Shown piece by piece: positions 43,770 through 45,784 of a stretch of 64,000 nucleotides of DNA (positions are counted from its first letter, which is position 1; each line of letters opens with the position of its first letter). The DNA is from Octopus vulgaris (lineage: Eukaryota). The stretch covers positions 37,634,001 to 37,698,000 of the forward strand of contig OX597825.1 of the NCBI GenBank assembly GCA_951406725.2, written 5' to 3'. Under the pieces are notes generated by a model that saw only the letters and a list, made by a program, of their open reading frames with translations, was not told the origin of the DNA and did not search any database. Made by a program: the position numbers and the translations under genes.

Positions 43770-43803
<34 letters not shown>

Positions 43804-43968
43804 CGTAAAGTATACTAGCCATATCAATATGGCTAACCACTGAGGGTGGGTGTTACTGTAGCTTTTAGCCCCAGGAGATCATCGACTCCAGCTGGCTTTA
43901 GGCACACTTTCTGTGCTCTTATGATATTTGCAAAGGGAGGTCATCCCCTGTCGTGAACCTAAGTGATA

Positions 43969-44014
43969 CGCACGGACTGCAGTTTCGACGTAATTTACCT
44001 CTTGTCAACGTACG
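43969..44014 (-). ncRNA. Minimal type-I hammerhead ribozyme, U3-A8 core variant (family 2)
   Basis: CGTACG-TTGACAA-GAGGTAAATTACGTC-GAAAC-TGCA-GTC-CGTGCG: 6-bp stem I, stem II hairpin, palindromic helix III ACTGCAGT, GUC cleavage triplet. Confidence 0.78.
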
Positions 44015-44381
44015 GTAATCACCGGTTTGCGACGAACGGAAGACCTGTTTGCAAATACTTATAGGTTTTTCTAGTGACTTCCGTCACTGATTTCGAAAAA
44101 CCGTCTGCAAGCAATAATAAATCTCTGAACGAGTTTTTCGAAATCAGTGATGGAAGTCACTAGAAAAAACTATAAGTATTTGAAACAGGTCTTCCTTTCG
44201 TCGTAAACCGATGATTACCGTACATTGACAAGAGGTAAATTAAAAATTAAAAGCTACAGTAACACCCATCCTTAGTGGTTAGCCATATTGATATGGCTAG
44301 TATATTTTACGTTGTCGAGCGGTTACTGTTTACATCTCGTTCAGAGATTTATTATTCCTTTCGTCGTAAACCGGTGATTAC

Positions 44382-44427
44382 CCTACGTTGACAAGAGGCA
44401 AATTACCTCGAAACTGCAGTCCGTGCG
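44382..44427 (+). ncRNA. Minimal type-I hammerhead ribozyme, U3-A8 core variant (family 2)
   Basis: CCTACG-TTGACAA-GAGGCAAATTACCTC-GAAAC-TGCA-GTC-CGTGCG. Confidence 0.78.
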
Positions 44428-44638
44428 CATCACTTAGGTTTACAAGAGGGGATGACCTCCCTTTGCAAATATCATAAGGGCACAGAAATTGTGCCTAAAG
44501 CCAGCTGGAGACGATGATCTCCTGGGGCTAAAAGCTACAATAACAGCCACCCTTAGTGGTTAGCCATATTGATATGGCTAGTATACTTTACGTTGTCGAG
44601 CGGTTACTGTTTACATCTTGCTCAGAGATTTATTATTG

Positions 44639-44718
<80 letters not shown>

Positions 44719-44844
44719 ATATATAAAATAGAAAAGAGTGAAGAAAAAACTACAGAAGGCTTGTTTTATAAGATTAAAGAATATATTTAAGTCGTTATGT
44801 TAGAAGAATGTTATAAAATTTTGCATATAGTAACATAGTTTTTG

Positions 44845-44883
44845 GAGAAATTACCGGTTTCCTGTTAACTTTTCAAATTTCTC
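44845..44883 (-). ncRNA. Minimal type-I hammerhead ribozyme, U3-A8 core variant (family 3)
   Basis: GAGAAAT-TTGAAAA-GTTAACAG-GAAAC-CG-GTA-ATTTCTC: perfect 7-bp stem I, palindromic ACCGGT helix III, GUA triplet; stem II closing pair mutated. Confidence 0.68.
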
Positions 44884-45022
44884 AAATGTCTTTATATACA
44901 TCTTTATATACAAGCGATTATCTCCCTTATACCGGAAGAAATCACCTATTACCTCCCCCTGCCTGGAACACTCTCTTTGCACTGCATAACGAAGACATGA
45001 CACGATGTATATAAAGACATTT

Positions 45023-45061
45023 GAGATATTTGAAAAGTTAATACGAAACCGGTATTTTCTC
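45023..45061 (+). ncRNA. Minimal type-I hammerhead ribozyme, U3-A8 core variant (family 3)
   Basis: GAGATAT-TTGAAAA-GT TAAT AC-GAAAC-CG-GTA-TTTTCTC: 2-bp stem II with G10.1-C11.1. Confidence 0.65.
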
Positions 45062-45259
45062 CAAAATCTATGTTATTATATGCAAAATTTTATAACATTC
45101 TTCTAACATAACGACTCAAATATATTCTTTAACCTCATAAAACAAGCCTTCTGTAGTTTTTTCACTCTTTTCTATTTTCTATATATCCAACCACGTGCTT
45201 TCACACACCAACTTTCTCACCTATATATATATATATATATATATGATTGTAGACATATA

Positions 45260-45746: not shown

Positions 45747-45784
45747 TCTTTCTGTCGAAGAGCGTAGGCTCGAAACGTAAAATA
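45747..45784 (+). ncRNA. Hammerhead-like motif with CUGUCGA core (family 4), in a ~170-bp repeat between (TA)n tracts
   Basis: TCTTT-CTGTCGA-A-GAGC GTAG GCTC-GAAAC-GTA-AAATA. A decayed inverse copy lies at ~50555-50700. Confidence 0.6.

What the first reader, a model, noticed from the sequence alone, without database searches (positions are those of the whole stretch)
44725..45178. Second, unrelated fold-back family with an ultra-minimal (39-nt) U3-A8 hammerhead
Seen: both 178-bp arms contain GAGAWAT-TTGAAAA-GTTAAYAS-GAAAC-CG-GTA-WTTTCTC, with a 7-bp stem I, a stem II of only 2 bp plus tetraloop, and a palindromic ACCGGT helix III. The sequence shares nothing else with the 43.8-kb family yet has the same U3-A8 swap. 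Inference: U3-A8 hammerheads may be recurrent in this lineage, and this one is near the smallest size the fold allows.
Basis: partly seen in the sequence, partly recalled or inferred. Interest (0 to 1): 0.82.

Follow-up and report, generated by a model that had tools for sequence, protein, structure and literature searches.

The report
Shrunken hammerhead in Penelope-like element ends
The fold-back is two broken-off tail ends of a Penelope-like jumping gene facing away from each other, and each holds a mutated copy of an unusually small, predicted self-cutting RNA whose swapped U3-A8 core occurs about 9,000 times in this genome.

Summary
The fold-back is not a new element type. It is an inverted pair of 5'-truncated 3' ends (pseudo-LTRs) of a Penelope-like retrotransposon (PLE) in a (TA)n tract. 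Elsewhere the arms run into an RT plus GIY-YIG frame, and a full pLTR-ORF-pLTR copy exists. The hammerhead is real at family level. The U3-A8 descriptor with this geometry has 629 matches against 3 in the control. The core differs at 2.2% of positions against 11.8% in the flanks of protein-selected copies, and stem II shows a compensatory change. U3-A8 is recurrent: about 9,000 matches, in two unrelated lineages. PLE hammerheads, U3-A8, 2-bp stems II and dimer cleavage are each published; 39 nt is no size record. Not found in the papers I could read: a PLE clade with a 1-2 bp stem II. One key paper was unavailable and cleavage is untested. The scan has PLE-hammerhead notes on other genomes, none on this one.

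The parts
44640..44724 (.). (TA)n tract on the left, likely the insertion target; it hides any target-site duplication
   Evidence: sequence; family copies end in (TA)n or (CT)n
44725..44902 (-). Left arm: 178-bp 5'-truncated pLTR copy, 3' end pointing outwards, no tail
44845..44883 (-). Left hammerhead copy: 7-bp stem I, U3-A8 core, ACCGGU, GUA triplet (A17 = 44852); G10.1-C11.1 broken by a change at 44862
   Evidence: the public contigs laid show the family base at 44862 (table 3)
44903..44905 (.). 3-nt junction between the two 5'-truncation points
44906..45178 (+). Right copy: 273-bp 5'-truncated pLTR, starting about 25-30 nt after where the ORF stops in other copies; 45004-45178 is the arm that pairs with the left copy
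45023..45061 (+). Right hammerhead copy: U3 = 45030, 2-bp stem II with tetraloop, ACCGGU, A17 = 45054; stem I with two U-U mismatches (changes at 45027 and 45055)
45179..45222 (+). PLE 'tail' on one end only; in the full-length sister copy L272 the same sequence lies between the 5' pLTR and the start codon
   Evidence: one tail in 27 of 32 inverted pairs, both in 0, none in 5
45223..45244 (.). (TA)n tract on the right

Best explanation
This is an inverted pair of 5'-truncated 3' ends of a Penelope-like retrotransposon, and the motif in each arm is that element's pseudo-LTR hammerhead, predicted to cut as a dimer in intact tandem copies but likely dead here. How it likely arose (inferred): the element's GIY-YIG nuclease nicked a (TA)n tract, and its RT copied the 3' end of one RNA onto both strands. 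It started once in the tail and once at the pLTR end and stopped early both times, leaving 273 bp plus tail and 178 bp back to back. How the motif would work in the parent (inferred): a transcript of pLTR-ORF-pLTR carries two hammerheads about 4 kb apart. Helix III cannot form in one copy (2 bp on a 2-nt loop), so two copies would pair through ACCGGU, and each core would cut after the GUH triplet, probably with help from the element's protein, releasing unit-length RNA that starts about 210 nt before the AUG. Shown: the PLE origin, the position of the motif, selective conservation of the core, and a compensatory change in stem II. Not shown: cleavage, dimer formation, transcription of this locus.
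For: Copies run 5' into an RT (Pfam RVT_1, 32.7 bits, cut-off 29.6), a C-x4-C-x2-C linker and a GIY-YIG-type end. Of 702 homologues, many of the 120 listed carry PF00078 and PF01541. L272 is pLTR(HHR)-tail-AUG-ORF-pLTR(HHR). The tail is on exactly one end in 27 of 32 pairs, as described for PLEs (PMC8557442 passages; two RT start sites in PMC11167929 passages). Both window arms share a private change at 45010-45011 seen in none of the other 33 aligned copies, which fits one template. Descriptor counts against reversed controls: 629/3, 2,093/5, 8,338/317; mismatched C3-A8 only 356/157. Copies chosen by the nuclease protein: core 10 of 455 differences (2.2%), flanks 915 of 7,749 (11.8%), 26 of 36 cores intact. 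Copies chosen by an upstream anchor: core 38/1,020 (3.7%), flank 584/9,713 (6.0%), Fisher p = 0.002; shared variants in 0 of 13 core columns and 4 of 6 columns inside stem-loop II. U10.2-A11.2 becomes C-G in sister subfamilies. Helix III is a palindrome in 24 of 30 and 27 of 30 pattern hits, with different sequences in different families.
Against: No cleavage data: the runs found are contigs only. The commonest subfamily in the anchor sample (50 of 85) has only one Watson-Crick pair in stem II (10.2/11.2 is A-A in 48 of 85) and a GUU triplet, yet it amplified. The double hammerhead is the predicted minimum-energy dimer for only 1 of 5 intact copies folded; for the window's own subfamily it is -13.3 against -17.7 kcal/mol for a fold without stem II. 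I saw no conserved loop II complementarity by eye. In a lizard PLE the hammerhead was dispensable for insertion in vitro and cut only with protein (PMC11167929 passages). The flank figure is inflated by the window's own mutations, and copies are not independent, so the Fisher p is indicative only.
Confidence: 0.8

Rival explanations
1. It is a PLE end, but the shrunken motif no longer cuts. The core is kept as a binding or folding signal for the element's protein, or only by descent.
For: A subfamily with a 1-bp stem II and GUU makes up 50 of 85 anchor-selected copies. Competing dimer folds are predicted for 4 of 5 copies. PLE hammerheads cut poorly in vitro, and other functions were not excluded (PMC4209133). 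The hammerhead was not needed for insertion in vitro. A C3-A8 mismatch version of another family occurs 9 times identically among 100 listed hits, three of them in tandem, so a broken 3-8 pair can spread.
Against: The invariant positions are the known catalytic-core ones, while loop II, position 17 and the flanks vary. Position 17 is A, C or U and never G in the 79 of 85 copies with a base there. The core persists in families with 41-64% nuclease identity, though those were picked by the pattern.
Confidence: 0.17
2. It is a MITE or fold-back DNA transposon with 178-bp terminal inverted repeats, and the hammerhead likeness is chance in AT-rich DNA.
For: Long inverted arms in a TA tract. Rfam's 150 listed best matches for the window contain no hammerhead (84 weaker matches were not shown).
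Against: The arms continue into RT and GIY-YIG coding sequence. Spans vary from 237 to 3,974 bp and the ends are asymmetric. The motif has 629 matches against 3 in the control.
Confidence: 0.02
3. This particular locus makes an active ribozyme.
For: The right copy keeps all 13 core positions and stem II.
Against: The two copies are on opposite strands. A read-through RNA folds into a hairpin of about 175 bp (-243 and -266 kcal/mol) with stem I probability 0 on either strand; the right arm alone also misfolds; each copy has a damaging change.
Confidence: 0.01

Closest known systems
Minimal type I hammerheads in PLE pseudo-LTRs (Cervera and de la Pena 2014, PMC4209133; read: main text parts 1-2 of 4, supplement parts 1-2 of 3)
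   Same: Position in both pLTRs, palindromic short helix III, G10.1-C11.1, predicted dimer action, pairs on opposite strands 100-700 bp apart, and a U3-A8 variant (about 1,300 hits in Schistosoma mansoni).
   Different: Their metazoan motifs have a long helix II (shortest 3 bp among the 56 in Fig. S3), a short helix I and usually an extra base after A9. Here helix II is 1-2 bp, helix I is 7 bp and there is no extra base. From position 3 to 17 this core is 25 nt, against about 27 for the shortest in that figure (my count on the extracted text).
Natural hammerhead variants of Perreault et al. 2011 (PMC3088659; passages read)
   Same: Natural U3-A8 covariation, said to be active in vitro; stem II often 2 bp and once 1 bp; palindromic helix III for dimers in repeats.
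   Different: There the tested 1-bp stem II comes with a pseudoknot in a metagenome RNA. I saw no conserved pseudoknot here (by eye only), and this motif sits in a PLE.
C-terminal-endonuclease PLEs of the Neptune/Nematis type (Craig et al. 2021, PMC8557442; passages read)
   Same: RT then CX2-5CxxC linker then GIY-YIG with CCHH; 5' truncation; inverted copy; one-sided tail; (TA)n targets; hammerhead in the pLTR.
   Different: Neptune versus Nematis was not tested with reference RTs. The full frame here seems about 1,200 codons with a long N-terminal part.
Lunse, Weinberg and Breaker 2017, small PLE hammerhead variants that cleave as dimers (PMC5785218; not held, only the title and a review's summary seen)
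   Same: By title and by the review PMC6765202 (passages): small PLE hammerheads with a palindromic short helix III that cut as dimers.
   Different: Unknown. It may already contain short-stem-II or U3-A8 variants, which would lower the novelty.
Animal non-LTR retrozymes (PMC7229834, search listing; bioRxiv 10.64898/2026.07.22.740005, part 1 of 5 read)
   Same: Type I hammerheads in PLE-related repeats; the neighbouring 43.8-kb family resembles these.
   Different: The element here is a truncated piece of a coding PLE, not a non-coding tandem unit.

Membership tests
Penelope-like element, C-terminal endonuclease | RT followed by GIY-YIG endonuclease in the parent element | tested here: met
   (in other copies; the window holds no coding sequence)
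Penelope-like element, C-terminal endonuclease | pLTRs in partial tandem and inverted arrangement, 5' truncation | tested here: met
   L272 tandem; L093, L273, L276 inverted; 32 inverted pairs
Penelope-like element, C-terminal endonuclease | 30-40 bp tail at one end | tested here: met
   27 of 32 pairs with one tail, 0 with two; about 40-44 bp here
Neptune/Nematis-type PLE | CX2-5CxxC linker and CCHH motif | tested here: met
   read directly in P0001; motif definition from PMC8557442
Neptune clade specifically | RT phylogeny with reference PLEs | not tested
   no named reference PLE was fetched; the tree holds only this genome's copies
Type I hammerhead ribozyme | Core YUGANRA and GAAA with a 3-8 pair, A15.1-U16.1, H17 | tested here: met
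   both window copies and the family
Type I hammerhead ribozyme | Stem II closed by G10.1-C11.1 | tested here: met
   met in the family and the right copy; not met in the left copy; only 1 bp in subfamily B3
Type I hammerhead ribozyme | Stem I flanking the cleavage site | tested here: met
   7 bp in the family and the left copy; the right copy lacks the 1.1-2.1 pair
Type I hammerhead ribozyme | Helix III, formed in a dimer through a palindrome | tested here: inconclusive
   palindrome conserved; the double hammerhead is the lowest-energy dimer in 1 of 5 copies
Type I hammerhead ribozyme | Stem I-loop II tertiary contact | tested here: inconclusive
   no conserved complementarity seen by eye across subfamilies; non-canonical contacts cannot be judged
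Type I hammerhead ribozyme | Site-specific self-cleavage | not testable with these tools
   only contigs were available
MITE / fold-back DNA transposon | Symmetric terminal inverted repeats that define a unit, no RT | tested here: not met

The most novel reading that the evidence does not exclude
One PLE clade in this genome has cut hammerhead stem II down to 1-2 base pairs on a U3-A8 core (25 nt from position 3 to 17), remodelled it several times with compensatory changes, and still cuts, probably as a protein-assisted dimer. In the same genome U3-A8 arose a second time in a retrozyme-like lineage where a C3-A8 form also spread. This would be a natural series for how small a working hammerhead can be and how its core pair is swapped.
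Probability: 0.45. Interest if true: 0.55.

Novelty: new variant of a known kind. Interest (0 to 1): 0.35.

Why it matters
The locus itself is a dead fragment. The family matters in two modest ways. First, descriptors that demand C3-G8 or a stem II of 3-4 bp or more would miss about 9,000 motifs in this genome, close to the number of canonical-core matches (11,414 with a looser pattern). Second, the role of PLE hammerheads is an open question, and this clade offers natural variants on one tree (4-5 bp, 2 bp and 1 bp stem II; GUA, GUU, GUC) in elements that all amplified. Testing them would show whether cleavage is needed for PLE spread or whether the core has another job.

Tried and rejected
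Rfam scan of the window: no hammerhead among the 150 listed of 234 matches; those listed are mostly miRNA-family models, and the ten alignments shown lie on microsatellites. Expression and cleavage: no RNA holder on record among 21 runs listed; the four runs laid were contigs, which cannot show ends. Whether U3-A8 and the short stem II extend beyond this genome is therefore open. Papers not held: Lunse 2017 and one stem II deletion paper looked up by a recalled id. Searches for prior reports: 'hammerhead'+'U3-A8' gave 1 paper; hammerhead+cephalopod gave 2 listed, neither on this by title and abstract start; hammerhead+Penelope+octopus gave 4 listed, one relevant to PLEs only; hammerhead+Octopus bimaculoides gave 0; U3A8/C3U/G8A gave 0. 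A two-ORF layout was considered and dropped, because L274 has all marker motifs in one frame. Pairing of loop II with the TGTTA downstream of stem I fits only one subfamily and was dropped. Dropped before counts: 8 of 94 anchor hits without downstream homology and one duplicate, plus 6 unassigned copies left out of the rate table; 1 of 37 protein-selected loci without a pLTR, while L251, probably misaligned, was kept and counts against the core. Earlier scan notes gave no lead.

Full report
Observation. The window holds inverted arms at 44725-44902 and 45004-45178, 178 and 175 bp, with 9 substitutions and one 3-nt indel between them, inside (TA)n tracts. The degenerate letters hide that the two copies are damaged in different places. 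The left copy has a perfect 7-bp stem I, but G10.1 faces G. The right copy has the 2-bp stem II, but two U-U mismatches in stem I, one of them the pair next to the cleavage site. Other copies carry the intact letters at these places (table 3). There is no similarity to the 43.8-kb family beyond chance.

What the arms are. The genome (G000, 2.8 Gb, 227 contigs) gave 1,898 first-look candidates, of which 40 were scored; most match the right arm plus the 'loop' (query 182-454) at 91-93%. The loop is therefore part of a 273-bp right copy. Upstream of other copies the sequence runs into a frame with RT motifs, a C-x4-C-x2-C linker, two cysteines and two histidines around an IIY...YVG motif, and a 'PELN' end. 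Pfam RVT_1 passes its cut-off on P0002. There are 702 homologues; the 120 listed are 41-74% identical, many carry RT and GIY-YIG families, and the four that bear an animal's name are from bivalves. L093 is a 3.9-kb copy with an inverted pLTR. L272, of a sister subfamily, is pLTR-tail-AUG-ORF-pLTR with a hammerhead in each pLTR. The 44 bp after the right arm is the PLE tail: one end only in 27 of 32 inverted pairs, both in 0, none in 5, with spans of 237-3,974 bp. This is the layout described for PLEs (PMC8557442 passages), and the tail has been tied to two RT start sites (PMC11167929 passages). Both window arms share a private change at 45010-45011, which fits one insertion event. From genome size and repeat content I take the host to be an octopus-like cephalopod; this is a guess from recall and was not tested.

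Is the motif more than chance? With U3-A8, G10.1-C11.1 six bases apart and a 2-nt helix III insert there are 629 matches against 3 for the reversed pattern; with C3-G8 there are 2 against 0. With seven bases: 2,093 against 5. With 7-18 bases: 8,338 against 317 (which includes the 2,093). The mismatched C3-A8 gives 356 against 157. C3-G8 with a looser pattern gives 11,414 against 688. The U and C patterns are not identical, so the ratio is rough. About 9,000 U3-A8 motifs (629 + 8,338, some 300 of them chance) is a lower bound.

Is the core selected? Two samples were chosen without the motif. Among 85 copies picked by a 14-nt anchor upstream, 79 were assigned to three subfamilies. The 13 core positions differ from their subfamily majority at 38/1,020 (3.7%) and the flanks at 584/9,713 (6.0%; Fisher p = 0.002, copies not independent). 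A second allele shared by six or more copies occurs in 0 of 13 core columns, 1 of 14 stem I columns, 4 of 6 columns inside stem-loop II and 16 of 126 flank columns; 47 of 85 cores are whole. Among 36 copies picked by the nuclease protein, the core differs at 10/455 (2.2%) and the flanks at 915/7,749 (11.8%, inflated by the window's own changes); 26 of 36 cores are whole.

Stem II across the clade. A tree of the nuclease region for 22 copies puts two families with 4-5 bp stems II outside a clade (99/98) whose members all have 1-2 bp. The root is a midpoint and the outgroup branch is long, so the direction (shortening) is inferred. Inside the clade the second pair is C-G in two distant families (41% and 64% nuclease identity), A-A or A-G in subfamily B3, U-A in the window's subfamily, and C-G again with a 5-nt loop in the subfamilies nested inside it. 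The outer stem I pair is G-C or G-U in the window's subfamily and A-U in sisters. Helix III is a palindrome in 24 of 30 and 27 of 30 pattern hits, and differs between families (ACCGGT, ACATGT, ACGCGT, ACTGCAGT). All PLE families in this tree that have a detected hammerhead use U3-A8; the outgroup L095 had none under my strict pattern. The distant families were found with the U3-A8 pattern, so this does not show that the whole clade lacks C3-G8. Against a simple story: B3, with one Watson-Crick pair in stem II and GUU, is 50 of the 85 anchor copies.

Recurrence of U3-A8. The 43.8-kb family has U3-A8 motifs at 44388 (+) and 44008 (-) with longer stems II, and is 65-79% identical to tandem repeats of about 353-359 bp that have C3-G8. 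tblastn found no PLE protein in those loci or in window 42-47 kb.

Mechanism. One copy cannot form helix III. In tandem transcripts two copies could pair through ACCGGU. Folding gives the double hammerhead as the lowest-energy dimer for 1 of 5 intact copies, and 1.4-7.4 kcal/mol above a competing fold for the other four, so help from a protein is plausible; a lizard PLE hammerhead cut only with its protein. In L272 the predicted cut lies about 210 nt before the AUG. At this locus the copies face opposite ways; a read-through RNA is predicted to form a hairpin of about 175 bp at -243 or -266 kcal/mol with stem I probability 0. No RNA evidence for or against cleavage was obtainable.

Comparison with the known. 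Hammerheads in pLTRs, palindromic helix III, opposite-strand pairs and U3-A8 (about 1,300 in S. mansoni) are in PMC4209133. Natural U3-A8 and 1-2 bp stems II are in PMC3088659. In Fig. S3 of PMC4209133 the shortest helix II is 3 bp, and two nematode motifs total 34-35 nt by my count. So 39 nt is not a record, but the 25-nt span from position 3 to 17 is about 2 nt shorter than any there. Lunse et al. 2017 could not be read and may already cover such variants. My literature searches found no report of a short-stem-II U3-A8 PLE clade or of hammerheads in this group of animals.

Verdict. A dead, ordinary PLE fragment that points to a real and well-conserved hammerhead variant. Every single trait is published. 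The combination in a PLE clade, and the genome-wide frequency of U3-A8, appear new but are untested. Novelty: new variant of a known kind. Interest 0.35.

Noticed in passing
window 43802-44640: The 43.8-kb fold-back has U3-A8 hammerheads at 44388 (+) and 44008 (-) with an ACTGCAGT helix III; it is 74-79% identical to a C3-G8 tandem repeat (L208, L240) and 65-68% to another (L239), and looks retrozyme-like.
   Followed up: partly
G000:C4:80857199-80857949 and others: One motif with a mismatched C3-A8 core occurs identically 9 times among 100 listed hits, including three tandem copies 360 bp apart and an inverted pair: a possible intermediate of the C3-G8 to U3-A8 swap that still spread.
   Followed up: no
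L174-L177 (G000:C1:8134351-8135463), L241: Tandem repeat of about 361 bp with a U3-A8 hammerhead (4-bp stem II, CAAUA loop, ACGCGT helix III): a retrozyme-like array with the swapped core.
   Followed up: partly
window 45752-45779: Remnant of the abundant C3-G8 minimal-hammerhead family seen, with a decayed first core segment.
   Followed up: no
window 48059 (+): Another minimal-hammerhead-like motif, with U3 opposite G8 and a longer stem II.
   Followed up: no
L095:1100-3850: A different PLE family (38% nuclease identity) lies just upstream of an insertion of this family; no strict hammerhead was found within 700 nt after its nuclease.
   Followed up: partly
run X6 (organism B): The family, judged from contigs, is also present in a second organism label.
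   Followed up: no
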